DNA of 64,000 nt, taken from an uncultured Alphaproteobacteria bacterium. Its GTDB lineage: Bacteria; Pseudomonadota; Alphaproteobacteria; Rhizobiales; Rhizobiaceae. The position numbers and the translations under genes are program-made. This document shows, piece by piece, positions 23,200 to 61,218 of this stretch. Every line of letters starts with the position of its first letter. Position 1 is the stretch's first letter. Location: positions 168,871 through 232,870 of the forward strand of contig CAWBWL010000008.1 in NCBI GenBank assembly GCA_963792485.1. Direction: 5' to 3'. The notes under the pieces are model-generated. The model had not been told where the DNA came from and did no database searches. It saw nothing but the letters and a program-made list of their open reading frames with translations.

Positions 23200-26100
23200 A
23201 TGCCCAAGCGGACAGACATCAAGTCGATCCTCATCATCGGCGCGGGGCCGATCATTATTGGTCAGGCCTGCGAGTTTGATTATTCGGGCACGCAGGCGTG
23301 CAAGGCGCTGAAAGCGGAGGGCTACCGGGTCATTCTGGTCAATTCCAATCCGGCGACCATCATGACCGATCCGGAGCTGGCGGACGCGACTTATATTGAG
23401 CCGATCACGCCGGAGATTGTCGCCAAGATCATAGCGAAAGAGCGGCCCGACGCGCTGCTGCCGACCATGGGCGGGCAGACGGCGCTGAACACGGCTTTGT
23501 CGCTGCGCCGCATGGGCGTTTTGGAGCGCTATAATGTCGAGATGATCGGCGCGAACGCCGAGGCCATCGACATGGCCGAGGACCGGGCTTTGTTCCGCGA
23601 GGCGATGAAGCGGATCGGGCTGGAGACGCCGCGCTCCATGCTCGCCAACGCCACGGATGTGAAGGACCTTGACCGGCAGGCGCACAAGGCCAAGCGCGCC
23701 GCGCTGAAGGACACGCTGTCCGGCGAGGCGCTGGACGCGGCGCTTGACCGGCTGGAGAATGAATGGAACCTTGGCGAGAGCGACCGCAAGCAGCGCTATA
23801 TCAGCCATGCCATGGCCATCGCCGCCCGCGCCATTGACGAGATCGGGCTTCCCCTGATCATCCGCCCCTCCTTCACCATGGGCGGCACCGGCGGCGGCAT
23901 CGCCTATAACCGCTCGGAGTTTTTCGACATCATTGGAAGCGGCCTCGACGCCTCGCCGACCACCGAAGTGCTGATCGAGGAATCGGTGCTCGGCTGGAAG
24001 GAATATGAGATGGAAGTGGTCCGCGACAAGGCGGACAATTGCATCATCATCTGCTCCATCGAAAACCTCGACCCGATGGGCGTGCACACCGGCAACTCGA
24101 TCACCGTCGCCCCGGCGCTGACGCTGACCGACAAGGAATACCAGATCATGCGCAACGCCTCCATCGCGGTGCTGCGCGAGATTGGCGTCGAGACCGGCGG
24201 CTCGAATGTGCAGTTCGCGGTCAACCCGGCGGACGGGCGGCTCGTCGTCATCGAGATGAACCCGCGCGTCTCGCGCTCGTCCGCTTTGGCGTCGAAAGCC
24301 ACCGGCTTTCCCATCGCCAAGATCGCCGCGAAGCTCTCGGTCGGCTACACGCTGGATGAGCTGGAGAACGACATTACCGGCGGCGCGACGCCGGCCTCGT
24401 TCGAGCCGTCGATTGACTATGTCGTCACCAAAATCCCGCGCTTCGCCTTCGAAAAATTCCCCGGCGCGTCGAATGTTCTGACCACGGCGATGAAGTCGGT
24501 CGGCGAAGTCATGGCGATTGGCCGCACCTTCCAGGAGAGCCTGCAGAAAGCTCTGCGCGGCCTCGAAACCGGCCTCACCGGATTGGATGAAATCGAAATC
24601 CCCGGCATCGGCACGGGCGACGACCGCAACGCCATCCGCGCCGCATTAGGCACGCCGACGCCGGACCGGCTGCGCATGGTGACGCAGGCGATGCGGCTCG
24701 GCCTCACCAATGAGGCGATCCACGATTCAGCTGCAAGATCGACCCCTGGTTCCTCGAGCAGCTGCGCGAAATCATCGACATGGAAGCGCGCATCCGCGAG
24801 CATGGCCTGCCGCGAAGACGCGGAAAATCTGCGCATGCTCAAATCCATGGGCTTTTCCGACGCCCGCCTCGCCGCGCTCACCGGCAAGCGCGGCTCGGAA
24901 GTCGCCAAGCTGCGCAACAGCCTGAAAGTGCATCCGGTCTACAAGCGCATCGACACCTGCGCCGCCGAATTCGCCTCGCCGACCGCCTATATGTATTCGA
25001 CCTACGAGACGCCGTTTGTCGGCGAAACGCAGCTCTGAAGCCAAGGTCTCGGATCGGAAGAAAGTCGTCATTCTCGGCGGCGGTCCCAATAGAATTGGCC
25101 AGGGCATCGAGTTCGATTATTGCTGCTGCCATGCCTCTTTCGCGCTGCGCGAGGCGGGCTATGAATCGATCATGATCAACTGCAATCCGGAAACCGTGTC
25201 CACCGATTACGACACGAGCGACCGGCTGTATTTCGACCCGCTGACCGCCGAAGACGTGCTCGAAATTCTGCGCGTCGAGCGGGAGGCGGGAACGCTGCAC
25301 GGCGTCATCGTCCAGTTCGGCGGCCAGACGCCGCTGAAGCTCGCCGACGCGCTGGAGCGCGCCGGCATTCCGATCCTCGGCACCACGCCGGACGCGATTG
25401 ACTTGCCGAAGACCGCGACCGGTTCCAGAAACTACTCGTCAAGCTCGACCTCACCCAGCCGCAGAACGGCATCGCCTATTCGGTCGAACAGTCGCGCACC
25501 ATCGCCTCCGAGCTCGGCTTCCCGCTCGTCGTGCGCCCGTCCTATGTCTTGGGCGGCCGCGCCATGCAGATCATCAATGATGAAGGCATGCTGCAAAGCT
25601 ATCTGCTCGACACCGTGCCGGGCCTTGTCACCGAGGACATCAAGGCGAAATATCCGAACGACAAGACCGGCCAGATCAACACGCTGCTTGGCAAAAACCC
25701 GCTGCTGTTCGACCGCTATCTCACCGACGCCGTCGAGGTCGATGTCGATTGCCTGTGCGACGGCGAGGATGTCTATATTTCCGGCATCATGGAGCATATC
25801 GAAGAGGCCGGCATCCATTCCGGCGACTCGCGCCTGCTCGCTGCCGATCCACACGCTCTCCGACAAGGTCGTCGCCGAGCTTGAGGAGCAGACCGCCGCG
25901 CTCGCCCGCGCCCTGAAAGTCGGCGGGCTGATGAATGTGCAATACGCCATCAAGGACGAGCAGGTCTACGTTCTCGAAGTGAACCCCCGCGCCTCGCGCA
26001 CCGTGCCGTTCGTCGCCAAGGCCATCGGCCTTCCGATCGCCAAAATCGCCGCCCGCGTCATGGCCGGTGAAAAGCTCAACGAAGCCATCGCCCATTACGG

Positions 26101-26688
26101 CGAGCGCGTCGACCAGAAGAAGATGAAACATGTCGCGGTGAAGGAAGCCGTCTTCCCCTTCGCCCGCTTCCCCGGCGTTGACATCCTGCTCGGCCCCGAA
26201 ATGCGCTCCACGGGCGAGGTCATGGGCCTCGACCGCGACTTCGCCATGGCCTATGCCAAAGCCCAGCTCGGCGCCGGCGTGGACCTGCCGCGCTCCGGCA
26301 CGCTGTTCGTCTCGGTCAAGGACTAGCGACAAGCCCCGCATCCTGCCCGCCGTGGACACGCTGGCCAAGCTCGGCTTCAAAATCATGGCCACCACCGGCA
26401 CGGCGAATTTCCTGAAGGAAAACGGCATCGCAGGCCGAGAAAATCAACAAGGTCCTCGAAGGCCGCCCCCACATAGAAGACGCCATCCGCAACCGCCAGG
26501 TCCAGCTCGTGTTCAACACGACGGACGGCGCGAAAGCCGAGAGCGACAGCAAATCCCTGCGCCGCGCGACGCTGATGCAGAAGGTGCCCTATTCAACAAC
26601 CCTCTCCGGCGCGCTGGCGGCGGTGGAGGCGATTGCGGCGCTGAAGGCGGGGAATTTTGAGGTGCGGCCGCTGCAGGATTATGTGTGA
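23200..26688 (+). pseudogene. carB: Carbamoyl-phosphate synthase large subunit, interrupted by at least six 1-bp indels
   Basis: Colinear with CarB along the whole length (both ATP-grasp domains, oligomerisation domain, MGS-like domain). The frame changes near 24730/24795, 25030, 25415, 25845 and 26320. The stop TGA is at 26686-26688. Confidence 0.9.
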
Positions 26689-26692
26689 GGCG
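26625..26692 (+). repeat. Direct repeat, left copy (3-prime end of carB)
   Basis: About 68 bp, GTGGAGGCGATTGCGGCGCTGAAGGCGGGGAATTTTGAGGTGCGGCCGCTGCAGGATTATGTGTGAGGCGG. It matches 30000-30067 with about 6 mismatches. Confidence 0.85.
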
Positions 26693-26773
26693 GCGCTTCG
26701 CCGCTATTTCTACCAAACGACTTAAGCCACCTTTAATTCTTCAACGCTACGTAGGCGCTGGGGGAGGCTGACT

Positions 26774-27163
26774 ATGTCACTCAATATCCGCATCAAGGAT
26801 TTCGTCAACGCCCGCGAAGTTGACAGCGGGATTGTGCTCGATTGGATGAGCGGCGTGCCGATGACGCTTGAAGTTCTCATCTGCGAACGTGTCAGCGCCG
26901 AATTTGAACGTTTGCGCAATTACCCGGATCAAGGGCTTCCGGACTTCCATCCGCTGGTCGCGTGGGTCAAATCAGCGGATTTTGCGGCACTTCACGACAA
27001 AAGGCTGAAAGACGCGCAAGAAGTCGCGCTCGCGGGATTCATCTCGGGCTCCTTTTTCGTTGTCGTTGACGGAAAGCAGATTGAGGATCTGGGCAGCGAG
27101 CTGCGCCTTACGCCAACCTCCAATGTTCGCTTCATCCGCCTTGTTCAGTTAAAGGGAGGCTGA
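26774..27163 (+). CDS. Hypothetical 129-aa protein, first gene of the inserted cassette
   Basis: RBS GGGGGAGG before the ATG. No recognisable family. Its stop lies 3 nt before the next start, whose GGAGG RBS sits inside this gene's 3-prime end (translational coupling). Confidence 0.55.
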   Translation: MSLNIRIKDFVNAREVDSGIVLDWMSGVPMTLEVLICERVSAEFERLRNYPDQGLPDFHPLVAWVKSADFAALHDKRLKDAQEVALAGFISGSFFVVVDGKQIEDLGSELRLTPTSNVRFIRLVQLKGG

Positions 27164-27166
27164 GTA

Positions 27167-29806
27167 ATGTTCGGCAAGCTCAAGAACGCGCTCTTCGGCA
27201 CGCAAAGAGAAGAGCCGCGCTTCAGCGCAGCGCCCCCCGTGAGGAAAGCCTTCGGCATGGCATCCGTGCCGGTGGTTGCCCGCGCCGCTGTCACGCCTCA
27301 GGTCGAAGCACTGAACATTGGGCCAGTTTCTCAGGCCCTCTATCCGGGCAAGCGTGAAGATGCGCTGTTTCTGGAATGGGTTGACGCGGTTAACGCCCAT
27401 TTGCGGCAGATAAAGGATCGCGCCCCGGACCCGGATGCCCATGTCATTCGCTGGATTGCAGTCAGATTTTTGGGCAACAAGACGGCGGATTTGACAGAAT
27501 CGAACCAGACGCTTTTCGGGAGCGCACAAGAGCCGGCATGGGTTCGAAAAGCCATTGAGACAATCAATTCGGTAACGCCAAAGGGTCTGGGCTTCGGCAA
27601 TTACATGGGCCCCGATATCGTCACCGGCAAGAAGAAGTTGCTTTCCCGCGGCGAAGCCGAAAGGCTGTTGAAACTGCTCGACCGACCGCCGCTGGTCATT
27701 GAGGCTTGGAACGGCCTCTCGCCGCCGCTGGCTGAACTGCTGCGCTTTGACACGCTGGACGATGCCGCGTCGCTTCTCGCGCATCTCGGCACGGCCACTT
27801 CGGCCAGTCCGTCGGGGACTTGGGAGAAAACGGCGCAGGCGCTTGCCAAGAAGGCGGGAGCCGACGTCGTAAGAGAGCGTTTGACGCAATGGCTGTCGCT
27901 GCTTGCGGACAAAAGCCCTTCGCCAAAAGACGTGCGCGACGCCTCACTGCTTTGGCACATCGGATACCAGATGACGTTGCTTGCCAGGCTGCGCGACAAC
28001 GGCGTTTCGCCGACACATGCGGCGGCGCTGGCTTTCCTTGAATATGACTTCAAACCGGTTGCGCCCGTCATGCACCCCGATATGGCAAATGCCTTCCCCG
28101 CCAGCGACGGGCAGCCGATGGTGCTGTCCAAGGAAAATGCCAACCGGGCGCGCGGCGCAGTCTGGCTGCTGTCCGGTTTGGGAGGAACACAGCCGGCCCT
28201 GTTCGAGCGCCTCGCGCTTGCAAGTTTGAACAAGTATGACTTGGGCGGCACTTATAACACACGGCAATTCTGCTCGCAGGCGCTGGCGAATGCCTGCATT
28301 TTTGCGCTGGGCCGTGACGGTTCGCCGGACGCAATCATGGCGCTTGGCCGCATCCGCCGCCGCATCCGCGATGCCCGCATCGCCGCGCAGGTTGACAAGA
28401 CAATGCAGGCGGCGGCTGCCGCCGTTGGCATGTCGGCAATTGATCTTGAAGAGACGGCATTGCCGGATTTCGACATCGGACCTGAGGGCTGGACCGAATG
28501 CATCGACGGCAACGAACTGACGTTGGAGATCAAAACAGGCGGCGCTGAGATCATTTGCACATCCCCATCCGGCAAAGCGCTGAAAAGCCTGCCGGCGGCA
28601 GTCAAATCCACGGAAGCCTGCAAGGACATGAAGGCGGCGGCGGACGAGATTGACGCCTTGCTGCCATTGATCCGCTGGCGGCTTGAATCCTCGTGGCTCG
28701 GGCATCGCAAATGGTCGCTTGAGAACTGGCGCGAGCGCTATGGCGAGCATCCTGTTGCCCGCGCGGTGGCCGCCCCGTTGATTTGGTGGATCGAGCGCGA
28801 AGGCCGGATGACTTCCGCAATGTGGCGCGAAGGAAAGTTTTCCGATGTCGGCGGCGGCGAAGTGGCGACCGGTGGCGCCACCGTCCATCTGTGGCATCCA
28901 ATTGAGGACATAGCGGGCAATGTTATGGCCTGGCGGCGGCATCTGGTCAAAAACCGCATCGTGCAGCCATTCAAGCAGGCCCATCGCGAGGTTTATCCCT
29001 TGACCGATGCCGAGCGCGAAACCGGAACATTCTCCAACCGCTATGCGGCGCACATCCTCAAGCAGCACCAATATATGGCGCTGGCGAAATCACGCGGGTG
29101 GAAGGCGAGCCATCGCATGAATGTGGATGCGCCCAACGATGCGCCGGTGATGATCGATCTTCCGGCTTGGAAAATCTGGGCTGAGATATTCATAGAAGGC
29201 GCGGGCGGTGATGATCCAGAAACCGTTGACTCCGGCGCCTATGTCTATGTCTCGACCGACCAGGTCCGCTTCCATGGCGCTTCGGGCCGCTTGAACCTTG
29301 CCGAGGTTCCGCCACTGGCATTCTCGGAAGTGATGCGGGATTGCGACCTGTTCGTCGGGGTCGCCTCCATCGGCGCTGATCCGAACTGGAATAACGGCGG
29401 CGCTGATGCGCGCCGGCCGAACCAATGGGAGCGCCACGCAGCGGACTATTGGCACCGCATGTCGTTTGAGACCCTCTCCGAAAGCGCCAAACTGCGCAAG
29501 GAGCTGGTTGCCGAGTTGCTGCCGTCCATGACAATCGCGCCTCTGTGCGAAATCCATGACAAATATCTGCGCGTGAGGGGCAAGTTGCGGACCTACCGGA
29601 TTCACTTCAATTCCGGAAACATTCTGATGGAGCCAAACGACGCCTATCTTTGCATCGTTCCAGCCAATGTCGCGCCTTCCGGCGACAAAATCTACGTGCC
29701 GTTCGAAGGGGACCGGCTTCTGTCAATCATCCTGTCCAAAGCGATCATGCTGGCAAATGACAGCGCAATTCGAGAACAGCATATAATGAACCAGATTTCA
29801 CGCTGA
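27167..29806 (+). CDS. Large (879-aa) DUF4132-like protein (MolR C-terminal-domain family)
   Basis: C-terminal half carries motifs I recall as DUF4132 hallmarks: HLWHPIE ... IVQPFKQAHREVYPLTDAER ... FSEVMRDCDLFVGVASIGADPNWNNGG. The N-terminal 450 aa has no recognised domain and no WGR motif. Confidence 0.55.
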   Translation: MFGKLKNALFGTQREEPRFSAAPPVRKAFGMASVPVVARAAVTPQVEALNIGPVSQALYPGKREDALFLEWVDAVNAHLRQIKDRAPDPDAHVIRWIAVRFLGNKTADLTESNQTLFGSAQEPAWVRKAIETINSVTPKGLGFGNYMGPDIVTGKKKLLSRGEAERLLKLLDRPPLVIEAWNGLSPPLAELLRFDTLDDAASLLAHLGTATSASPSGTWEKTAQALAKKAGADVVRERLTQWLSLLADKSPSPKDVRDASLLWHIGYQMTLLARLRDNGVSPTHAAALAFLEYDFKPVAPVMHPDMANAFPASDGQPMVLSKENANRARGAVWLLSGLGGTQPALFERLALASLNKYDLGGTYNTRQFCSQALANACIFALGRDGSPDAIMALGRIRRRIRDARIAAQVDKTMQAAAAAVGMSAIDLEETALPDFDIGPEGWTECIDGNELTLEIKTGGAEIICTSPSGKALKSLPAAVKSTEACKDMKAAADEIDALLPLIRWRLESSWLGHRKWSLENWRERYGEHPVARAVAAPLIWWIEREGRMTSAMWREGKFSDVGGGEVATGGATVHLWHPIEDIAGNVMAWRRHLVKNRIVQPFKQAHREVYPLTDAERETGTFSNRYAAHILKQHQYMALAKSRGWKASHRMNVDAPNDAPVMIDLPAWKIWAEIFIEGAGGDDPETVDSGAYVYVSTDQVRFHGASGRLNLAEVPPLAFSEVMRDCDLFVGVASIGADPNWNNGGADARRPNQWERHAADYWHRMSFETLSESAKLRKELVAELLPSMTIAPLCEIHDKYLRVRGKLRTYRIHFNSGNILMEPNDAYLCIVPANVAPSGDKIYVPFEGDRLLSIILSKAIMLANDSAIREQHIMNQISR

Positions 29807-29999
29807 TCGGCGTCTCGCTGATACGAACACTGTGGCGGAAGCCGGCGCACTGCTTCACCGCACTTCCGCCTGCCATTCCCGCTGCATCCGCACTTTGCCG
29901 CCCAGCGTCACCGTCACGATCCCCTCACACGTCCACGCCGGCCAGCCGCCATTCGGGCGCATTTTGCCGGTGAACAGGAGATATTGCGCCTTGCTGCAG

Positions 30000-30067
30000 T
30001 GGAGGTGATTGCGGCGCTGAAGGCGGGGAATTTCGAAGTGCGGCCGCTGCGGGATTATGTGTGAAGG
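30000..30067 (+). repeat. Direct repeat, right copy (degenerate carB 3-prime terminus, non-coding here)
   Basis: GTGGAGGTGATTGCGGCGCTGAAGGCGGGGAATTTCGAAGTGCGGCCGCTGCGGGATTATGTGTGAAGGCGG. Confidence 0.85.
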
Positions 30068-30074
30068 CGGACGG

Positions 30075-30377
30075 CTACCCCGCCCGCGCCTCAATCCGCT
30101 GCATGCCCTCTTCCGAGACCGTCGCCAGATCATAGTTCGCCTGCAAATTCATCCAGAACTGCGGCGTGGTGCCAAAATAGCGCGCCAGACGCTTGGCTGT
30201 GTCGGCGGTGACTTCGCGCTTCTCACGGATGATTTTTTCAATTCTGTCGCGCGGCACAAACAGCGCTCTGGCCAGCGAACCGGCGGTCAGCTGGTAGTCG
30301 GGAAGAAAGTCCTCCCGCAGAATTTCTCCGGGATGCACCGGGCGGGGTGACAGCTCATCCATGCGCGTTCCCCTCAA
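30075..30377 (-). CDS. higA: HigA-family antitoxin (XRE-type HTH)
   Basis: HPGEILREDFL ... LARALFVPRDRIEKIIREKREVTADTAKRLARYFGTTPQFWMNLQ is the canonical HigA/VapI HTH. Confidence 0.85.
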   Translation of the reverse strand: MRGTRMDELSPRPVHPGEILREDFLPDYQLTAGSLARALFVPRDRIEKIIREKREVTADTAKRLARYFGTTPQFWMNLQANYDLATVSEEGMQRIEARAG

Positions 30378-30658
30378 TGGTAATCAACAATTTCAACGTC
30401 ATAGGCATCATTGTCCTTCCAGACAAAGCATATCCGCCAATGGATATTGATTCTGATCGAATATTGTCCGTCTCTGTCGCCGCTCAATCCCTCCAGATGA
30501 TTTGAGGGCGGAACCCGCAAGTCTGAGATATCAGCGGCGGCATCCAGCTGGGCCAAACGCCGCTGCGCCCGCGCCACAATGTCGCCGGGAAATCCTTTGA
30601 CATGCCGGCCTGCCCGCAGGGCTTGTACTCGCTTGTCCTTGATATTTCTGATCAATGC
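30374..30658 (-). CDS. higB: HigB-family toxin (RelE/ParE superfamily, plasmid-maintenance killer type). Probable TTG start; overlaps higA by 4 nt.
   Basis: C-terminal LEGLSGDRDGQYSIRINIHWRICFVWKDNDAYDVEIVDYH closely resembles Proteus HigB. The N-terminus IRNIKDKRVQALRAG aligns with HigB MIKSFKHKGLKLLF. No in-frame ATG at this position, so a TTG start is assumed. Confidence 0.7.
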   Translation of the reverse strand, partial: ALIRNIKDKRVQALRAGRHVKGFPGDIVARAQRRLAQLDAAADISDLRVPPSNHLEGLSGDRDGQYSIRINIHWRICFVWKDNDAYDVEIVDYH

Positions 30659-30912
30659 AACGTATCCTAATAAGATACAAAAATCAAGTCCGAATTTTCT
30701 AACTTTCAGTTGCCCATTTGTTGCCAAAATACAACTCCCCTCTCCCGCCTTCAACCTCCCCGCACATTCCCCTTGCGTCACCATGCCGTTGCGCCTATCC
30801 GCCCGCCTCCCGGATGACACCGTCCGAGCCGAACGCGGTTCAAGCTCGTGAGCTTGGCCGACGCGCCCCCGCTGGGTGAGCGTGTGTTGAGGCCGGAAGA
30901 GGACGTTTGGGA

Positions 30913-30987
30913 TTGGCATGTAGCTCAATGGTTAGAGCGCTGGCTTCAGGTGCCAGAGGTAATAGGTTCGAATCCTGTCATGCTGCC
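30913..30987 (+). tRNA. tRNA-like sequence 1 (canonical D-arm and T-arm, anticodon-loop TTCAGGT = CAG, short variable loop, imperfect acceptor)
   Basis: TAGCTCAATGGTTAGAGC D-arm; CTGGC/GCCAG anticodon stem; GGTTCGAATCC T-arm; CCA present at 30985-30987. A CAG anticodon on a class I scaffold is abnormal. Possibly a pseudo-tRNA, or a tRNA hit by the same indel problem. Confidence 0.35.
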
Positions 30988-30988
30988 A

Positions 30989-31062
30989 CTGCGAAATAGC
31001 TCAGTTGGTTAGAGCAACAGATTAAGGTTCTGTCGGTCGAAGGTTCGATTCCTTCTACGCAC
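30989..31062 (+). tRNA. tRNA-like sequence 2 (canonical D- and T-arms, anticodon-loop TTAAGGT, acceptor stem not pairable)
   Basis: TAGCTCAGTTGGTTAGAGC; ACAGA/TCTGT anticodon stem; GAAGGTTCGATTCCTTC T-arm. The 5-prime TGCGAAA cannot pair with the 3-prime TACGCAC. Confidence 0.3.
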
Positions 31063-31414
31063 TCCGCAGTCTGAAAAACTGCAATCAGCCTATGAAGCTG
31101 ACTTACCAAATGAGCCCTTCGGGGAAGTTTGTTCCAGACTTGGAACCATCTGCGGGCTTCGGCTCAAGGGCGGGAAAAAGAAAGGAACAGCGGCGGCTTT
31201 GCCAGCGTTTTGGCGGAAGCGGCGCGCGCATTCAGGTCCGGCTTTGGGCGCGCCCATAGCTTCGCCTTTATCGCCCGCGCCGGTGAACTCTTAACCCGCA
31301 AGGCCCCCGTCACGGCTTTCCCGAAGGGTGTTCGCGCTCCGATCAACCCTTAACCCCAACAACACAGGAAACACACGACCCATGCCATGAGCTGACGTGC
31401 ATATTGAAAGGACC

Positions 31415-32581
31415 ATGACGATGACCGAGACAAAGAAGATTTTCACCCGCACCCGCATCACCGTGCCGGAAGGCGAGCGCGCGCTTGTGCTGGTCAACGG
31501 CAGGTTCGACGCGATCCTGCGCCCGGGCCGCCACGCAATCCCGTCTCTGTTCTCCTCCGTCAAGGTCGAGGCCTTTCAGCTCGTCAACGCGGCGTTCGTG
31601 AGCCCGTATGAGCAGGCGCTTGTGGCAAGCCGTCCGGATCTGGTCTCCGAGCACTTCACGGATGTGCGCACGTCGGCGGACGAGGTCGGCGTGATCTACC
31701 GCGACGGCAAGTTCCTTGTCGTGCAGAAGCCGGATGCGCGCCAGCTGTTCTGGACAGATGCCGGGCCGTGGAAGGCTGAGCTGATCGACGTGTCGGTCTC
31801 GCTCGAAGTGCCTGCGAAACTGGCGCAGCGCATCGGCGTGAGCGACCGCGTCAAGCGCTTCAGCGTCGAGGACGGTCAGGCGGGCCTGCTCTACATCGAC
31901 AACGCCTATGTGCGTTTGCTCGATGCGGGCGCCTACGCGTTCTGGAACGTTGGCCGCACGGTCTCGGTCAAGATCGTCGACACGCGCCAGCATGCGCTGG
32001 ATGTGACGGGGCAGGAAGTCTTGACCCGCGACAAAGTCTCGCTGCGTGTCAACCTGGTGGCCAAATACGCCGTGGTTGATGTGGTCAAGGCCGTGTCGAG
32101 CGTGAAGGATTATGCGGATGCGCTTTACCGCGCCTTGCAGCATGCCTTCCGCCAGTCGCTGTCGGCAAAGTCTTTGGATGAAATCCTCTCCCGCAAGGGC
32201 GAGGTCGATCTGGAGGCTGCAAAGCAGGTGCGCGATGAGATGGCGGCCATCGGTCTGGAGGTCGGCGACATCTCGATCAAGGACGTCATCCTGCCGGGCG
32301 ACATGCGCGACATGCTGAACAAGGTCGTGAACGCGGAGAAGGAGGCGGAAGCCAACGTCATCCGCCGCCGCGAGGAGACCAACGCGACGCGCTCCCTGCT
32401 CAACACGGCGAAGATCATGGCCGAAAACCCGGTCATGCTGCGCCTGAAGGAGCTGGAAGCGCTCGAAAAGATCGCCGACAAGGTCCAGACGCTGACCGTT
32501 CACAACGGCACGCAGGGCCTGCTCAACGATCTGGTCAGCCTCGGCGCGCCCAAGCCTTTGAAGCGCGCTGGCGCCAAGTGA
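31415..32581 (+). CDS. SPFH/band-7 (stomatin-prohibitin-flotillin-HflK/C) domain protein
   Basis: Central SPFH-like region followed by a long coiled-coil / Ala-Glu-rich C-terminus. RBS AAGGA before ATGACCGAG. Confidence 0.7.
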   Translation: MTMTETKKIFTRTRITVPEGERALVLVNGRFDAILRPGRHAIPSLFSSVKVEAFQLVNAAFVSPYEQALVASRPDLVSEHFTDVRTSADEVGVIYRDGKFLVVQKPDARQLFWTDAGPWKAELIDVSVSLEVPAKLAQRIGVSDRVKRFSVEDGQAGLLYIDNAYVRLLDAGAYAFWNVGRTVSVKIVDTRQHALDVTGQEVLTRDKVSLRVNLVAKYAVVDVVKAVSSVKDYADALYRALQHAFRQSLSAKSLDEILSRKGEVDLEAAKQVRDEMAAIGLEVGDISIKDVILPGDMRDMLNKVVNAEKEAEANVIRRREETNATRSLLNTAKIMAENPVMLRLKELEALEKIADKVQTLTVHNGTQGLLNDLVSLGAPKPLKRAGAK

Positions 32582-32790
32582 AACGACCCGCCCCGGCCGG
32601 AATTGGCCGGGGCGGCACCCATCTTGCCGCATTCCGACTTTTGCGTTAATACTTTCGTATCGAATTTGAAGACCGAACGAGATGCCCCGCGATTATTCGC
32701 AAGCTGACGCTTCCCTCAAAATTTCGATCCAACCGCTGGTCAGACCTTGTGTGGCCGGCACGTCAACTGCGAAAAAGGAAATAAAATCAA

Positions 32791-33000
32791 ATGGCTACAG
32801 GAACCGTAAAATGGTTTAACGGTCAAAAAGGCTTCGGCTTCATTCAGCCGGACGCCGGCGGCGCGGATGTGTTTGTGCACGTCTCGGCCGTCGAGCGCTC
32901 AGGTCTTGGACAGCTCAATGAAGGCCAGAAAGTCAATTATGAGCTGGTGCAGGACAAGCGCACCGGCAAGACTTCGGCAGGCGAACTTTCCGCCGCCTGA
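32791..33000 (+). CDS. cspA: Cold-shock protein, CspA family
   Basis: [18 protein letters not shown] ... DVFVH are the RNP1/RNP2 motifs. Confidence 0.9.
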
Positions 33001-33020
33001 TCTGATAACGCGGCGCGCGG

Positions 33021-35182
<2,162 letters not shown>

Positions 35183-35195
35183 TCGAAAGGGTGCG

Positions 35196-35275
35196 ACGGC
35201 GGTGTGTGGGTCGGCGTTTGGGCTGGGGCCTAATTTCCGGATCAGCTATGCCACGAGCGCCAACCTATCCTGCGA
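35196..35275 (+). repeat. Degenerate duplicate of the aatA 3-prime coding end (would encode ...[17 protein letters not shown]...), directly abutting low-GC DNA
   Basis: Compare 35057-35128 with 35196-35263. GC content drops sharply from about 35264. Confidence 0.75.
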
Positions 35276-35380
35276 ATAATTATCGTATGAATAAATATGT
35301 CATTATCCAACTTGCCTCAATGGCATAATTTCCAGTGCAAATAAGTGTTGTTAAAGCGCAAGAGAATAAATAGCGGTTCT

Positions 35381-36424
35381 TCATTCTAATATCTCGTGAC
35401 AAGCTTCAATCTTGCTTGCATTCGTTTTTGGTTGATCCGATAGTTGCATCTGCATACTGTCTGTTGACTTGTAGCCATGCTCGGCGAAAGCCATTTTGGC
35501 TTTCGTCGTTTTACAAGAGAGCCGCTCGCTGCCGCCCGCCAAAAACCAAGATGTGGTCCATGTGTCCCATGACGGGATGAGGCCTTTATAGCCGATTGTT
35601 TTGAGTTTGCGGGCTCTCTTGTGCGCATGCATCGTCAGTTCATCACTCCCTATGGATGCGACCATTCCCGGGCTGATCATTCGTTGGCCTACTCCCGTTT
35701 TGTAGGTTACGGTCCAGACCTTGTTTGGGTGATGATCGAGAAGATATTTCACTGCCATGCGATCTTCCGCAACGTTCATATCTCTGAAAGCGAATGGCAA
35801 ATATCTGTTCTGACTGAATTGCTCACCCTTAGACCTTCCGCCTACAGTGAGTATCTTGATTACCTCTTTGCTCTCTATGAGGCCCGATTTCAGGAGGATT
35901 GCCGAAACAGTGACAGGGCCAAGTTCGGCGATCACAACCTTCCCGTTGATCTTGATTACGTCGGCTATCTCAGAAAGCATCTTGATGTCATTTGCATCAA
36001 CTTTCGATGCCGCATCAAATGGCATACGCCGCTTCGGCCCGTGGTAAACAGGCCAAGCTCCCAAGTTCAGCTCTTTAAGCCTTACTTTCAAATTAGCATG
36101 AACTTGGCTGGTGCTTGAGCCGCCATTGCCAAAAATAGAGACGATTCCAATGACTTTAATACAGCCCAATTTTTCTAGCCGTGAATACATGTAGAGCGAA
36201 ATTGAGTCATCAATCTCCCCCATACGGGTTGCATCAGAGACTATGAGAGTTGGTAATGTCAGCGCACTTGCACAGCTTGGCTTTGATCCGAAGAAGTGCT
36301 CTTCAAGACCATTTGCGAACGCAAATCCTACATTCCCCGCAAGCATCGCAGCGATAAACAATTTGATTCTGATCACCGGCAAGCCCCCGCTTTGGCGGAG
36401 AAATATCAGCGCCGTCTCATTCAA
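35381..36424 (-). CDS. Secreted hypothetical protein in low-GC islet, possibly nucleoside hydrolase (IUNH)-like
   Basis: Signal-peptide-like N-terminus. LIVSDATRMGEIDD and VIGIVSIFGNGGS loosely resemble the IU-nucleoside hydrolase Asp-cluster and GN motifs. Low GC. Confidence 0.4.
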   Translation of the reverse strand: MNETALIFLRQSGGLPVIRIKLFIAAMLAGNVGFAFANGLEEHFFGSKPSCASALTLPTLIVSDATRMGEIDDSISLYMYSRLEKLGCIKVIGIVSIFGNGGSSTSQVHANLKVRLKELNLGAWPVYHGPKRRMPFDAASKVDANDIKMLSEIADVIKINGKVVIAELGPVTVSAILLKSGLIESKEVIKILTVGGRSKGEQFSQNRYLPFAFRDMNVAEDRMAVKYLLDHHPNKVWTVTYKTGVGQRMISPGMVASIGSDELTMHAHKRARKLKTIGYKGLIPSWDTWTTSWFLAGGSERLSCKTTKAKMAFAEHGYKSTDSMQMQLSDQPKTNASKIEACHEILE

Positions 36425-43056: not shown

Positions 43057-43401
43057 TCCAAACGCGTCCCGCCTGCCGCTTCCCCAAGCGGTTGAGGCGA
43101 TTTTGCACGCGCATATTTAACCCATGGTAATGCGAGAGCTTCAGATTTGGCTCGTGGTTAGCGCGGGATTAACAAACGTCAGGCTGTGATATCGGACAGC
43201 TGCGAAAAAAAGCCCGGCGCAAAGCCGGGCTTAAAGTTTTGGGGGCGCCGTTTCCAGCAAAACCTCCAGAGGGGAACACTCACGGAGCGCGGTGGGAGGA
43301 GGAGATGCGCTCCTGAGATCATTGTCAGGTATTTGTCCAGCTGCCTGTTTTCAATGCACGCTTTCGCATTTCAGCATTGCAAATTTGCCGAGGCTATGCC
43401 C

Positions 43402-59935: not shown

Positions 59936-60031
59936 TCAGACCTTGTTGAACCTCATGCCGGGCTTCACGAAAATGGACAGGGACCTGCCCGCAGCAGGAG
60001 CGATCTTTGGGAGATGAATGGTCTTGGTCAT
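59936..60031 (-). CDS. Candidate 31-aa ORF (MTKTIHLPKIAPAAGRSLSIFVKPGMRFNKV) upstream of the SagB-like gene
   Basis: ATG preceded by an AAAAGG-type RBS. It is followed by the intrinsic terminator, then the SagB-like gene starts 68 nt after the stop. No Cys/Ser/Thr enrichment. Coding status unproven. Confidence 0.2.
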   Translation of the reverse strand: MTKTIHLPKIAPAAGRSLSIFVKPGMRFNKV

Positions 60032-60243
60032 TTTTTTGCCTTTTCTGGGTTGGGTTAACAACGACCTTTTTTAGTTGTGTATCTGCAATAGTTGCAACTT
60101 GAAATTGCTTCTTTACGTAAGGAAAATTTGCGCACGATCAGCGGCTCGTGTGCTGAATTCGCTTATTTCAGCGGTCAGTAGAATCGGTGCAAATACCAAA
60201 TTCGTAGAAGGGGAGAACTTCTATGAACAAGGGGTTAAAAAGA

Positions 60244-60455
60244 TGATTAACACAAATGCAAGAGAGCTAAAAGTCAACATATTCCCTTCGCCTAGCCTAT
60301 CGTCGAGCGTAATCCTGCAAGATATTGTTCGTGGCTTGAATGAAGCGAAAAAGTTCGCCGAAATGCATTCTGATCGGGAAATACTATATTTTATATCAAT
60401 GGCACTTCATTGCACCAAAGAGAAACTATTACTCTCTATATATGATAGTAATTGA
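60244..60455 (+). CDS. Hypothetical 70-aa protein in AT-rich islet
   Basis: GC about 35% in a roughly 62% GC background. RBS AAGGGG before ATGATTAAC. Divergent from the XRE regulator gene. Confidence 0.3.
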
Positions 60456-60483
60456 GTGCATGATCAAAGTATTAGGAGATTTT

Positions 60484-61218
60484 TTATGGAAACGCAAGAA
60501 CTTCTGAAGCCTGATGAAATTTTACCTTGCGCATTGCTTTCCAGACCTTTGTTCTCTTTGGCACGGCAGTAATATAGAAACTCACTTTGCCATATTCGCT
60601 ATCAGGAGAAACATCGGCCAAACCTGCGTAGATGATATCTGAAGACGCCACCACACGCCCGACAAGGAAGGTGGGTGGCGTATTTTTTTTCAAATCGACG
60701 CCGATAAAGAACGCCAAGCCATCCCGGAAAACTATGATTCCCGAATGCACGCCCCGCCCACGCGGATGTAGGACGCCAGCAACGCCTCCCGGCCTTGTTA
60801 TCCGCCTAAAACTAGTAACACCTCCCTCACGCTTTACCGCCATCAATGAGCAAGCAACGAGATTTGGATCTTCGGGCACAGAAAAGTTGACGTAATACAA
60901 CCCATCGATTAGCGCCGGCCGGGTTGACAACCTCTCAGCTGAAACCACGCGTTCGATGAACTTCCTCTGCCGGTCCGTCAGCGCCTCAATATTCCGAAAA
61001 TCCGTTTCAGGATCCGCCTCCCGAAACAGCGTTCCGACATCCACCTGAAAATACGCGCAGATATTGTCGATCACCCGCTCGTTTGGCAGGTTCTTGCCGG
61101 TCACATAGCTGTTGAACTGCTGCCTGTTCAGCCCAAGCTCGCGCGCAACGTGGGCGTGGCTTTTCTCTTTCGCACACAGCCGGCGAAGATTGCCCGAGAA
61201 AATAGCGCGTATCGACAT
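60484..61218 (-). CDS. XRE-family HTH transcriptional regulator with an uncharacterised C-terminal domain of about 150 aa
   Basis: LRRLCAKEKSHAHVARELGLNRQQFNSYVTGKNLPN is a HTH_3 motif. The C-terminal domain is not recognised and has no S24 peptidase motif. Confidence 0.7.
   Translation of the reverse strand: MSIRAIFSGNLRRLCAKEKSHAHVARELGLNRQQFNSYVTGKNLPNERVIDNICAYFQVDVGTLFREADPETDFRNIEALTDRQRKFIERVVSAERLSTRPALIDGLYYVNFSVPEDPNLVACSLMAVKREGGVTSFRRITRPGGVAGVLHPRGRGVHSGIIVFRDGLAFFIGVDLKKNTPPTFLVGRVVASSDIIYAGLADVSPDSEYGKVSFYITAVPKRTKVWKAMRKVKFHQASEVLAFP

What the first reader, a model, noticed from the sequence alone, without database searches (positions are those of the whole stretch)
30913..31062. 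Tandem pair of aberrant tRNA-like sequences
Both have textbook D-arms (TAGCTCARTGGTTAGAGC) and T-arms (GGTTCGAWTCC) and perfect 5-bp anticodon stems. Their anticodon loops read CAG and AAG on class I (short variable arm) scaffolds, which is incompatible with tRNA-Leu. The second copy cannot form an acceptor stem. They may be pseudo-tRNAs, att-site remnants of an integrative element (they lie between the higBA/cassette region and the SPFH gene), tRNA mimics, or genuine tRNAs damaged by the indels that affect this sequence.
Basis: seen in the sequence. Interest (0 to 1): 0.55.

Follow-up and report, generated by a model that had tools for sequence, protein, structure and literature searches.

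The report
Band-7-associated tRNA-like RNA pair
The two odd "tRNA-Leu" genes are not decoding tRNAs but a conserved pair of tRNA-shaped non-coding RNAs that sits in front of one subfamily of slipin (SPFH/Band-7) genes in Proteobacteria; this class was predicted by comparative genomics in 2016, and I found no report of an experimental test.

Summary
Window 30914-30986 and 30989-31063 are tRNA-shaped: Rfam tRNA scores 59.3 and 50.1 bits. ARAGORN calls them tRNA-Leu(CAG) and tRNA-Leu(AAG) despite their 5-nt variable loops.

They are not Leu tRNAs, decayed pseudogenes, att remnants or assembly damage. I fetched 13 alphaproteobacterial loci through homologues of the downstream slipin gene (57-92% identity, different flanking genes). 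Every locus has the same tandem pair, on the same strand, 330-470 nt upstream of the gene. Two gamma/beta loci also carry it. The cloverleaf stems covary: 91-94% of cells are paired, and 15-17 of 21 pairs show changes on both sides. The "anticodon" differs in almost every locus, and stop anticodons occur. The copy-1 loop is often only 4-6 nt.

In Photobacterium and Burkholderia the same module lies inside an RtcR / slipin / RtcB (/ RlaP) RNA-repair operon. [quoted passage not shown] The class is absent from Rfam 15.

The alphaproteobacterial form stands alone, with no RtcB, RtcR or RlaP in 64 kb. It is embedded in a conserved structured leader of about 600 nt. Mechanism is inferred: a tRNA-mimic partner or decoy of the SPFH scaffold, or a cis processing element.

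The parts
30720..30735 (+). Inverted repeat GTTGC-N6-ACAAC; family consensus TGTTGC-N6-GCAACA. Putative operator upstream of the promoter-like element.
   Evidence: Conserved columns in the 12-locus alignment. Function is inferred.
30772..30800 (+). Promoter-like element CTTGCG-N17-CTATCC.
   Evidence: Conserved CTTGC...N17...CTAT block at the same position in 11-12 alphaproteobacterial loci. The E. coli-type consensus scan did not pick it up. Function is inferred.
30809..30913 (+). Structured 5' domain (three-way junction) that abuts tRNA-like 1.
   Evidence: RNAalifold on 12 loci predicts 27 pairs, 18 of them with compensatory changes. Single-sequence folds agree in most loci.
30914..30986 (+). 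tRNA-like element 1 (b7a-tRNA copy 1). Cloverleaf with pseudo-anticodon CAG, followed by CCA-C.
   Evidence: Rfam tRNA 59.3 bits; ARAGORN; MFE cloverleaf. In 12 loci 94% of cells are paired and 17 of 21 pairs change on both sides. Anticodon-loop length across loci is 4-7 nt.
30989..31063 (+). tRNA-like element 2 (b7a-tRNA copy 2). Pseudo-anticodon AAG and a weakened acceptor stem.
   Evidence: Rfam tRNA 50.1 bits; ARAGORN. In 14 loci 90.8% of cells are paired and 15 of 21 pairs change on both sides. It is 93% identical to L006, and 3 of the 5 differences lie in the anticodon loop.
31066..31101 (+). Two small hairpins (31066-31082 and 31085-31101) after copy 2. They are not followed by a U-run.
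   Evidence: Fold z-score -3.0. Stem sequences differ between loci while pairing is kept (by eye, in the alignment). No + strand terminator-like site.
31114..31129 (+). 5' strand of a 16-bp long-range helix that closes a domain of about 185 nt.
   Evidence: An uninterrupted helix of 14-17 bp is the longest one found at this position in 12 of 13 loci; L013 has it only with a 1-nt bulge (read by eye). Shuffles give a mean of about 9.5. 95.5% of cells are paired and 9 of 14 pairs change on both sides.
31314..31329 (+). 3' strand of the long-range helix.
31382..31390 (+). Two-codon upstream ORF ATG-CCA-TGA, preceded by AGGAA (31367-31371).
   Evidence: ATG or GTG, then NNN, then a stop codon is conserved in register in 10-11 of 12 alphaproteobacterial loci. 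Sequence read. Function is inferred.
31415..32581 (+). Slipin (SPFH/Band-7) gene, 388 aa. It belongs to the subfamily that lies in rtc RNA-repair operons of beta- and gammaproteobacteria.
   Evidence: Pfam Band_7. 5692 homologues at E<=1e-30. 38-40% identity over 94-96% of its length to the Photobacterium, Burkholderia and E. coli proteins, which sit next to RtcR, RtcB and RlaP. No TM-like segment.

Best explanation
The two elements are a tandem pair of 'band 7-associated tRNA-like' RNAs (b7a-tRNA). They keep the tRNA cloverleaf and elbow: D arm, T arm, anticodon stem and usually the acceptor. Their anticodon carries no coding meaning.

They are probably transcribed together with the slipin (SPFH/Band-7) gene downstream, from a conserved promoter-like element. 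The precursor would be about 600 nt long and made of several structured domains.

The most likely mechanism is inferred by analogy with Ro60 and the tRNA-like Y RNA YrlA, and from the rtc operon context of the beta- and gammaproteobacterial homologues. tRNA-processing enzymes would recognise the tRNA-shaped modules and release them. The released RNAs would then partner the slipin assembly. There they would act as a tRNA mimic in the response to tRNA or RNA damage: as bait, decoy or inhibitor for tRNA-targeting nucleases, or as an adaptor that brings damaged tRNA or repair enzymes to the scaffold.

Shown here: the fold, its conservation and covariation, the anticodon variability, the strict linkage to this slipin subfamily, and the rtc context in other classes.

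Inferred: co-transcription, processing, binding to slipin, and any role in RNA repair.
For: (1) Both elements are tRNA-shaped.

(2) In all 13 alphaproteobacterial loci reached through slipin homologues of 57-92% identity, a tandem tRNA-like pair lies on the same strand 330-470 nt upstream of the slipin start. The flanking genes differ: carB-hicAB, DAO/GCV_T, ferrochelatase, PhzF, LysR and others.

(3) ARAGORN's anticodon calls differ from locus to locus: CAG/AAG, ca/TGG, none/TAG, TCA/gt, GCG/none, AAA/GAT, none/TGT, none/ACG, TTA/TTA, tc/CAT, TAA/CTT, ca/TTT and none/AAG. The copy-1 loop lengths are 7,6,5,5,5,7,7,6,5,4,6,5 nt.

(4) The stems covary. Copy 2 has 90.8% of cells paired and 15 of 21 pairs changed on both sides, against 33-51% in slid controls. 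Copy 1 has 94% and 17 of 21.

(5) The same module occurs in other classes. Photobacterium carries RtcR(-), two tRNA-likes, slipin, RtcB. Burkholderia carries RtcR(-), a tRNA-like, slipin, RtcB, RlaP. E. coli carries slipin plus RlaP behind a sigma54-like motif.

(6) Literature. Wang et al. [quoted passage not shown] A 2026 paper places a P. aeruginosa SPFH gene inside the rtc locus and does not mention the RNA (PMC13086221).

(7) No + strand terminator-like site lies between copy 2 and the slipin start. The spacer shows no codon periodicity in window-versus-L006 differences (15/17/23, against 26/15/74 in the CDS).
Against: There are no expression, processing or binding data, so the trans-acting role is pure inference.

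No RtcB, RtcR or RlaP lies in the 64-kb window or within 3-4 kb of the alphaproteobacterial loci (tblastn). The link to RNA repair therefore rests on distant homologues of 38-40% identity.

The acceptor stem of copy 2 is weak in the window's clade and absent in Nitratireductor (L010) and Photobacterium copy 2. A 3' CCA is present in only some lineages. Release as a tRNA-sized RNA is therefore uncertain for that copy.

The copy-1 alignment (A6) and the long-helix alignment (A8) were segmented by hand to fit the structure, so their pair counts lean towards it.

I could not read the primary 2016 paper. I cannot say whether tandem or stand-alone forms were already described there.
Confidence: 0.72

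Rival explanations
1. The elements act purely in cis. The tRNA-like modules, with the 5' three-way junction, the 16-bp stalk and the 2-codon uORF, serve as processing, stability or translational-control signals of the slipin mRNA leader. They would resemble the RNase P / RNase Z 't-elements' of plant mitochondria or tRNA punctuation. The released RNAs would have no function of their own. This reading does not exclude the best explanation.
For: The elements lie on the same strand as slipin, with no terminator before it. The whole 600-nt leader is conserved and structured. A 16-bp perfect helix is the kind of duplex RNase III cuts (my own knowledge). A conserved mini-uORF with its own SD sits 25 nt before the slipin start. 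The copy-2 acceptor and CCA are dispensable in several lineages.
Against: A processing signal would not obviously need two complete cloverleaves. Nor would it need anticodon stems kept by compensatory change, or a canonical CU-NNN-AA loop frame in copy 2. The beta and gamma versions have much shorter, different leaders but keep the tRNA-like units. The published parallel for rtc operons is a trans-acting tRNA-like Y RNA.
Confidence: 0.2
2. They are genuine decoding tRNAs. Either they are unusual class-I tRNA-Leu species, or they are mistranslating or suppressor tRNAs charged by another synthetase.
For: ARAGORN calls both tRNA-Leu. Copy 2 has a canonical 7-nt loop in most loci. In L015 it is a 76-bit tRNA with a perfect acceptor stem.
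Against: There is no long variable arm, and position 73 is not A in either copy; bacterial tRNA-Leu is class II with A73 (my own knowledge). Orthologous copies carry unrelated anticodons, including UUA and UCA stop anticodons. Copy-1 loops of 4-6 nt cannot present an anticodon. The window-clade copy 2 has only 4-5 acceptor pairs. No single acceptor identity feature is conserved: G3.U70 occurs in only 4 of 12 copy-1 sequences.
Confidence: 0.03
3. They are decaying pseudo-tRNAs, or the remnant of a tRNA attachment site left by an integrative element between the toxin-antitoxin region and the slipin gene.
For: Toxin-antitoxin-like genes lie just upstream: an HTH gene in the window and hicAB in L006. 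The acceptor of copy 2 is imperfect.
Against: Stems are kept by compensatory substitutions over large distances. The pair is linked to slipin, not to the variable upstream genes. No repeated 3' half occurs in the window. No integrase was found among the neighbouring ORFs scanned.
Confidence: 0.02
4. They are ordinary tRNA genes corrupted by the indel errors of this assembly.
For: The window has split genes: carB at 23200-25038 / 25016-26326 and an aminotransferase at 33496-34242 / 34106-35182. Copy 2 has one extra A (30994) that the two closest relatives lack.
Against: Independent assemblies show the same non-canonical features: JGI and ENA metagenome contigs, NCBI MAGs and an isolate genome. 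L023 has the identical UUAAGGU loop. No single indel restores a standard anticodon or a class-II arm.
Confidence: 0.02

Closest known systems
b7a-tRNA (band 7-associated tRNA-like ncRNA), predicted by Burroughs & Aravind, Nucleic Acids Res 2016 (PMC5062991, not readable here); summarised in Wang et al. 2018, bioRxiv 10.1101/312249
   Same: It is a predicted ncRNA that strongly resembles a tRNA and is encoded next to a Band-7/SPFH gene. The slipin here is homologous over its full length to the Band-7 proteins inside RtcR-RtcB(-RlaP) operons, which carry the same upstream tRNA-like units.
   Different: In this window and in all 13 alphaproteobacterial loci no RtcB, RtcR or RlaP is adjacent. The unit is a tandem pair. 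It is embedded in a conserved structured leader of about 600 nt, with a sigma70-type promoter-like element rather than a sigma54 one. I could not check whether the 2016 paper already covers these forms.
YrlA / bacterial Y RNAs with Ro60 (Rsr) in rsr-yrlBA-rtcBA operons
   Same: YrlA is a tRNA-mimicking ncRNA encoded beside a putative scaffold protein in rtc-type RNA-repair loci. According, b7a-tRNA and YrlA are predicted to swap partners occasionally.
   Different: No Ro60 gene was seen near the element, although the window was not scanned exhaustively. The Rfam YrlA model scores only 19.9 bits against a gathering score of 69. YrlA has a Ro-binding helix formed by its 5' and 3' ends and a partial tRNA-like domain. 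The present elements are two complete cloverleaves.
tRNA-like processing signals in mRNAs: plant mitochondrial t-elements, mascRNA/MALAT1, and tRNA genes co-transcribed with tufB in E. coli (own knowledge)
   Same: These are tRNA-shaped modules on the same transcript as a protein-coding gene, and they are plausible RNase P / 3'-end processing sites.
   Different: The t-elements are usually single and partial, and they are not tied to one protein family across bacterial classes. The tufB-operon tRNAs are genuine decoders.
Canonical bacterial tRNA-Leu (class II)
   Same: The NAG anticodon triplets and G37 in the window's two copies match. This is why ARAGORN labels them Leu.
   Different: The variable loop is 5 nt instead of a long arm. 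Position 73 is not A in either copy. The anticodon is not conserved in orthologous copies.

Membership tests
b7a-tRNA (band 7-associated tRNA-like RNA) | Sequence folds as a tRNA-like cloverleaf with D and T arms | tested here: met
   Rfam tRNA 59.3 and 50.1 bits. MFE cloverleaf. Covariation in 12-14 loci.
b7a-tRNA (band 7-associated tRNA-like RNA) | Encoded immediately upstream of, and on the same strand as, a Band-7/SPFH gene; the linkage is conserved across genomes | tested here: met
   The pair is present in 13 of 13 alphaproteobacterial loci; Photobacterium has a pair and Burkholderia one full unit plus a T-arm remnant.
b7a-tRNA (band 7-associated tRNA-like RNA) | Located in an RNA-repair operon with RtcB (and RtcR or RlaP) | tested here: not met
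   tblastn with RtcB, RtcR and RlaP finds nothing in the 64-kb window or in the alphaproteobacterial flanks. The feature is met only in the homologous Photobacterium and Burkholderia loci. The name as quoted requires association with Band-7, so this failure marks a variant and does not exclude membership.
b7a-tRNA (band 7-associated tRNA-like RNA) | Expressed as a stable RNA that works with the Band-7 protein | not testable with these tools
   It had not been validated experimentally even for the original prediction as of 2018. No later paper was found.
Bacterial tRNA-Leu | Class-II long variable arm | tested here: not met
   The variable loops AGGUA and CGGUC are 5 nt.
Bacterial tRNA-Leu | Anticodon conserved among orthologous genes | tested here: not met
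   Anticodon calls differ between loci, include stop anticodons, and some loops are only 4-6 nt.
YrlA / Y RNA | Match to the Rfam YrlA model | tested here: not met
   YrlA scores 19.9 bits against a gathering score of 69.
YrlA / Y RNA | Adjacent Ro60 (TROVE) gene | not tested
   No TROVE-domain hit appeared among the ORFs scanned from 23200 to 36424, but the rest of the window was not scanned.
tmRNA (including two-piece alphaproteobacterial form) | Detected by ARAGORN or Rfam as tmRNA with a tag ORF | tested here: not met
   ARAGORN and Rfam report no tmRNA in the window.
tRNA att-site remnant of an integrative element | Duplicated tRNA 3' segment bounding an island | tested here: not met
   The 3' halves of both copies are unique in the window at up to 3 mismatches.
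tRNA att-site remnant of an integrative element | Integrase gene bounding the island | tested here: inconclusive
   No integrase domain was found among the ORFs scanned from 23200 to 36424. The rest of the window was not scanned.

The most novel reading that the evidence does not exclude
The pair is only the most visible part of an undescribed multi-domain RNA of about 600 nt. In order, the RNA comprises a 5' three-way junction, two tRNA mimics, two hairpins, a 16-bp stalk that closes a domain of about 185 nt, a 2-codon uORF (Met-Pro/Arg/His-stop) and the slipin start.

In Alphaproteobacteria this RNA would have become an RtcB-independent sensor of tRNA damage or translation stress. The tRNA mimics would serve as bait for tRNA-targeting nucleases, and their freely changing anticodons would track the nucleases encountered. 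The uORF and stalk would convert that signal into slipin expression.
Probability: 0.15. Interest if true: 0.75.

Novelty: new member of a known kind. Interest (0 to 1): 0.42.

Why it matters
There is a practical consequence. Standard tRNA callers label these elements as tRNA-Leu, tRNA-Pro, tRNA-Lys, and even 'tRNA-Stop' or 'tRNA-SeC'. They can therefore create false reports of suppressor tRNAs, recoding or extra isoacceptors in proteobacterial genomes and MAGs. No Rfam family captures them.

There is also a biological consequence. The b7a-tRNA prediction of 2016 had not been tested as of 2018, and I found no later test. The strict linkage shown here across three proteobacterial classes supports it, and so does the strong covariation. 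The linkage also points to tractable carriers. About 30% of complete E. coli genomes carry the slipin-RlaP island, P. aeruginosa has PaFlo8 in its rtc locus, and Nitratireductor is an isolate.

If the RNA really partners an SPFH assembly, it would be a second case, after Ro60 and Y RNA, of a tRNA mimic paired with a putative scaffold protein in RNA-damage responses.

Tried and rejected
- **Strict genome and metagenome pattern scans** for class-I tRNAs with NAG anticodons. They found only one true relative (L001). The other hits were unrelated single tRNAs: L002 (Latescibacterota), whose acceptor stem does not pair, and L003-L005, His-like tRNAs with a GAG anticodon.
- **Viral-contig scan with the conserved copy-2 core**. 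It hit at least 120 contigs, but 93 of 120 are ordinary phage tRNA-Arg(UCU). The pattern is not specific and gives no evidence for phage carriage.
- **PADLOC** on the slipin and RlaP proteins: no defence-system match.
- **Plasmid tblastn** found no close alphaproteobacterial relatives. It did give the informative Photobacterium, Burkholderia and E. coli loci.
- **Reading the spacer as a protein.** The apparent conservation 'PEGVRA' falls on the 3' strand of the long-range helix. It is interrupted by a stop codon in the window, and window-versus-L006 differences show no codon periodicity. I rejected this reading.
- **MAFFT alignment of copy 1** mis-aligned the variable-length anticodon loops. 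I replaced it with a hand-segmented, N-padded alignment, which leans towards the structure.
- **The primary paper** (PMC5062991 / 10.1093/nar/gkw722) is not held in the library.
- **P0001**, the window's own slipin, is not on record in the contig index. The source genome was not identified.
Full report
**1. The observation**

Window 30914-30986 and 30989/30990-31062/63 are the only tRNA-like sequences in the 64 kb.
- ARAGORN calls them tRNA-Leu(cag) and tRNA-Leu(aag).
- The Rfam tRNA model scores 59.3 and 50.1 bits against a gathering score of 29.
- Read directly, copy 1 is UGGCAUG-UA-GCUC-AAUGGUUA-GAGC-G-CUGGC-UUCAGGU-GCCAG-AGGUA-AUAGG-UUCGAAU-CCUGU-CAUGCUG-C. Its minimum-free-energy fold is a cloverleaf.
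- Copy 2 has the same arms, with ACAGA-UUAAGGU-UCUGU and the variable loop CGGUC. Its acceptor forms only 4-5 of 7 pairs.
- Both variable loops are 5 nt, which makes both scaffolds class I.

'Cannot form an acceptor stem' overstates a weakened stem.

**2. The window is indel-prone, but that does not explain the elements**

carB is split into two ORFs (23200-25038 and 25016-26326). An aminotransferase is split as well (33496-34242 and 34106-35182). A relative whose slipin is 92% identical (L006) has an intact 1160-aa carB.

I aligned window 30700-32590 to L006. The tRNA-like pair, the spacer and the slipin CDS differ by only four single-base indels. One is the extra A at 30994 in the 5' acceptor strand of copy 2. 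L023, another close relative, also has GAA rather than GAAA there, and it carries the identical UUAAGGU loop. So at most one base of the finding is a possible assembly error.

**3. The elements belong to a conserved family tied to the slipin gene**

The ORF downstream (31415-32581) is an SPFH/Band-7 'slipin' protein. I used its homologues (57-92% identity) to fetch contigs from JGI, ENA, NCBI and Logan assemblies.
- Every alphaproteobacterial locus has two adjacent Rfam- or ARAGORN-detectable tRNA-like units on the slipin strand, 330-470 nt upstream of its start. The loci are L001, L006, L008/L009, L010, L011, L012, L013/L014, L015, L016, L017/L018, L019 and L023.
- In L012 and L013 copy 1 is too divergent for the callers but is visible in the alignment.
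- The genes flanking the module are unrelated from locus to locus. They include carB-hicAB, a DAO/GCV_T oxidase, ferrochelatase, PhzF, a LysR regulator and a PLP decarboxylase.

The conserved unit is therefore the tRNA-like pair, the spacer and slipin together.

**4. They are not decoders**

ARAGORN's anticodon calls for the pair are:

| Locus | Copy 1 / copy 2 |
|---|---|
| window | CAG / AAG |
| L006 | ca / TGG |
| L001 | none / TAG |
| L008 | TCA ('SeC') / gt |
| L010 | GCG / none |
| L011 | AAA / GAT |
| L012 | none / TGT |
| L013 | none / ACG |
| L015 | TTA / TTA ('Stop') |
| L016 | tc / CAT |
| L017 | TAA / CTT |
| L019 | ca / TTT |
| L023 | none / AAG |

Sources.

- The copy-1 loop is 7, 6, 5, 5, 5, 7, 7, 6, 5, 4, 6 and 5 nt in the twelve copy-1 sequences that I segmented (eleven alphaproteobacterial loci plus Photobacterium copy 1).
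- Copy 2 usually keeps a 7-nt loop framed CU-NNN-AA, but the triplet varies.
- Between the window and L006, copy 2 differs at 5 of 74 positions. Three of them lie in the loop. That fits relaxed constraint; it is not significantly faster than the roughly 19% divergence at third codon positions.

**5. The fold is under selection**

- On the MAFFT alignment of copy 2 (14 loci, A4), the cloverleaf gives 90.8% paired cells and 15 of 21 pairs with changes on both sides. The covariation score is 0.47, against 0.07-0.16 when partners are slid. No shuffle in 500 reaches the observed values.
- The D stem is invariant. The T and anticodon stems covary. The acceptor is the weakest helix (73.5% paired), with recurrent mismatches at 1:72 and 6:67.
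- For copy 1, MAFFT mis-aligned the variable loops. I segmented the sequences by hand and padded the loops with N. This gives 94% paired cells and 17 of 21 pairs with changes on both sides. The alignment leans towards the structure, but slid controls give only 37-48%.
- Several deeper-branching loci have fully canonical acceptors followed by N73-CCA. These are copy 1 in L008, L011 and L019, and copy 2 in L016, L017 and L019. L012 copy 1 also has A73-CCA, but with an A1.C72 mismatch and one extra base next to the T stem.

**6. What the family is**

A tblastn of the slipin against plasmid and chromid records found full-length homologues of 38-40% identity in Photobacterium, Burkholderia and E. 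coli.
- Photobacterium (L022): a divergent RtcR gene, then two tRNA-like units (Rfam 54.1 and 46.4 bits), then slipin, then RtcB.
- Burkholderia (L021): RtcR, one full tRNA-like unit plus a T-arm remnant, slipin, RtcB, RlaP.
- E. coli (L020): slipin is followed by an RlaP nucleotidyltransferase (Pfam PF10127, 'RNA repair pathway DNA polymerase beta family'). The upstream region has a sigma54-like TGGCACG-N4-TCGCA motif and keeps only a recognisable T arm.

I recalled a possible match from the literature and then checked it. Wang et al. 2018 (bioRxiv 10.1101/312249) state that in certain bacteria RtcB is encoded next to a Band-7 domain protein and a predicted ncRNA. [quoted passage not shown] The RlaP preprint confirms the origin of the RlaP name in the same 2016 study (PMC12776372).

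The 2016 paper itself is not held in the library. Searches for 'b7a-tRNA', 'band 7-associated', tRNA-like + SPFH/slipin and RtcB + SPFH found no later work on the RNA. A 2026 study of P. aeruginosa SPFH proteins notes that PaFlo8 lies inside the rtc locus and does not mention an RNA (PMC13086221). Rfam 15 has no family for the element; only the generic tRNA model hits, and YrlA scores 19.9 bits against a gathering score of 69.

**7. What is particular about the alphaproteobacterial form**

(a) No RtcB, RtcR or RlaP is detectable in the 64-kb window or in the fetched flanks.

(b) The pair sits in a conserved non-coding region of about 600-700 nt. Its parts, in order:
- An inverted repeat (window 30720-30735) and a CTTGCG-N17-CTATCC promoter-like element (30772-30800) are conserved in the 12-locus alignment.
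- The roughly 105 nt between this element and copy 1 fold into a three-way junction. RNAalifold predicts 27 pairs, 18 with compensatory changes.
- After copy 2 come two small hairpins.
- Next is a long-range helix (31114-31129 with 31314-31329). An uninterrupted helix of 14-17 bp is the longest found at this position in 12 of 13 loci. Shuffled spacers give a mean of about 9.5 and a maximum of 11-15. In L013, by eye, the corresponding helix has a 1-nt bulge. The helix sequence differs between lineages while pairing is kept: 95.5% of cells are paired and 9 of 14 pairs change on both sides (the strands were chosen by the helix search, so this count also leans towards the structure).
- About 25 nt before the slipin start there is a 2-codon ORF with its own AGGAA. 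It reads ATG-CCA-TGA in the window (31382-31390). In relatives it reads ATG-CGA-TGA, ATG-CAC-TGA, ATG-CCT-TGA, ATG-CGG-TAG or GTG-TAT-TAG.

(c) No + strand terminator-like site separates the pair from slipin. The spacer evolves without codon periodicity.

(d) The slipin subfamily has no TM-like hydrophobic segment. The maximum Kyte-Doolittle 19-residue mean is 1.0-1.44.

**8. Mechanism**

Shown:
- a tRNA-shaped pair maintained by selection;
- an anticodon that is not conserved;
- obligate linkage to one slipin subfamily in three proteobacterial classes;
- an rtc operon context in two of those classes.

Inferred, best-supported first:
- The pair is transcribed with slipin.
- Its cloverleaf and elbow make it a substrate for tRNA-processing enzymes.
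- The released RNAs act as tRNA mimics together with the slipin assembly in a response to tRNA or RNA damage. This follows the role proposed for Ro60 and YrlA in rsr-yrlBA-rtcBA operons.

Whether they act as decoy, bait, inhibitor or adaptor cannot be decided here. A purely cis-acting role, in processing, stability or translational control of the slipin mRNA, is the main rival and is not exclusive. I put about 0.9 on the identity (a b7a-type tRNA-like RNA that does not decode) and about 0.4 on the trans-acting partner mechanism.

**9. Novelty and scores**

The kind is known as a computational prediction from 2016. This is a new member in an RtcB-less, tandem, long-leader alphaproteobacterial form. 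I could not establish whether that form has been described before. I score interest as moderate, at 0.42. The result explains away an apparent genetic-code oddity, flags an annotation hazard, and gives covariation and linkage support to a prediction that, as far as I could find, has not been tested.

Noticed in passing
window 31382-31390 (SD-like AGGAA at 31367-31371): A two-codon upstream ORF (ATG-CCA-TGA) lies about 25 nt before the slipin start. It is conserved as start-NNN-stop (Pro, Arg, His or Tyr codon) in 10-11 of 12 alphaproteobacterial loci. It is absent from the Photobacterium and Burkholderia leaders.
   Followed up: partly
window 31114-31129 with 31314-31329: A perfect 16-bp long-range helix closes a GC-rich domain of about 185 nt in the leader. 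It covaries between lineages and is long enough to be an RNase III substrate.
   Followed up: yes
window 30809-30913: A conserved three-way-junction RNA domain lies directly upstream of tRNA-like 1 (27 predicted pairs, 18 with compensatory changes). It matches no Rfam family.
   Followed up: partly
window 30720-30735 and 30772-30800: A conserved inverted repeat (family consensus TGTTGC-N6-GCAACA) lies about 35 nt upstream of a conserved CTTGCG-N17-CTAT promoter-like element. The regulator is unknown. The beta and gamma homologues have sigma54-like TGGCAC-N5-TYGC motifs instead.
   Followed up: no
window 23200-26326; 33021-35182: carB is split into two overlapping ORFs. An aminotransferase is split too, and a GST is truncated (158 aa against 205 aa in L006). 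These are either assembly indels or pseudogenes.
   Followed up: partly
window 43205-43319 (-): Rfam hit to the alphaproteobacterial sRNA ar15 (RF02345, 45.3 bits, gathering score 40). This is consistent with an alphaproteobacterial origin of the window.
   Followed up: no
L003 982-1056 (-), L004 639-713, L005 1049-1090 (-): These are single class-I tRNAs with a GAG (Leu) anticodon. In L003 (a Bacteroidetes MAG) and L004 (a metagenome contig) the acceptor ends look like tRNA-His (G-1, C73). L005 is a copy truncated at its 5' end. They are unrelated to the slipin module and could be His-type tRNAs with a Leu anticodon.
   Followed up: no
L002 5261-5336: A single class-I tRNA with a GAG anticodon in a Latescibacterota MAG. 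Its acceptor stem does not pair.
   Followed up: no
L015 2383-2532; L008 3515-3586: ARAGORN labels the slipin-linked tRNA-likes as two 'tRNA-Stop(tta)' in L015 and as 'tRNA-SeC(tca)' in L008. L015 copy 2 is a 76-bit tRNA with a perfect acceptor stem. Such elements could be mistaken for suppressor tRNAs in genome annotation.
   Followed up: partly
L020 (E. coli CP061233.1 609323-615432): A slipin + RlaP two-gene island lies between a DUF3811 gene and lysC. Its 529-nt upstream region is present at >=80% coverage in 1629 of 5426 complete E. coli genomes, with nothing annotated in the listed records. Only a T-arm-like GGGTTCGATTCCC remains recognisable.
   Followed up: partly
L008 2983-3225 and 5212-5451; L011 1958-2200; L013 4188-4427: A small 79-80 aa gene lies next to the slipin module on the opposite strand in several Aestuariivirga-like loci. 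It matches PF27144 (PA14_33160 family) in L008 and L011; the L013 copy has no Pfam hit on record.
   Followed up: no
window 31415-32581 and homologues: This slipin subfamily has no TM-like hydrophobic segment (maximum KD19 1.0-1.44). Its first ~150 residues are an extension N-terminal to the Pfam Band_7 match, so it may be a soluble SPFH assembly.
   Followed up: partly
viral contigs L024-L143: The D-arm and anticodon-stem sequence of copy 2 (GAGCAACAGAYU...UCUGU) is shared with ordinary phage tRNA-Arg(UCU) genes (93 of 120 pattern hits). This hints at the tRNA type from which copy 2 derives.
   Followed up: partly
window 35001-36000 and 60001-61000: These are local low-GC stretches (0.51 and 0.45) against a window background of about 0.60.
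   Followed up: no
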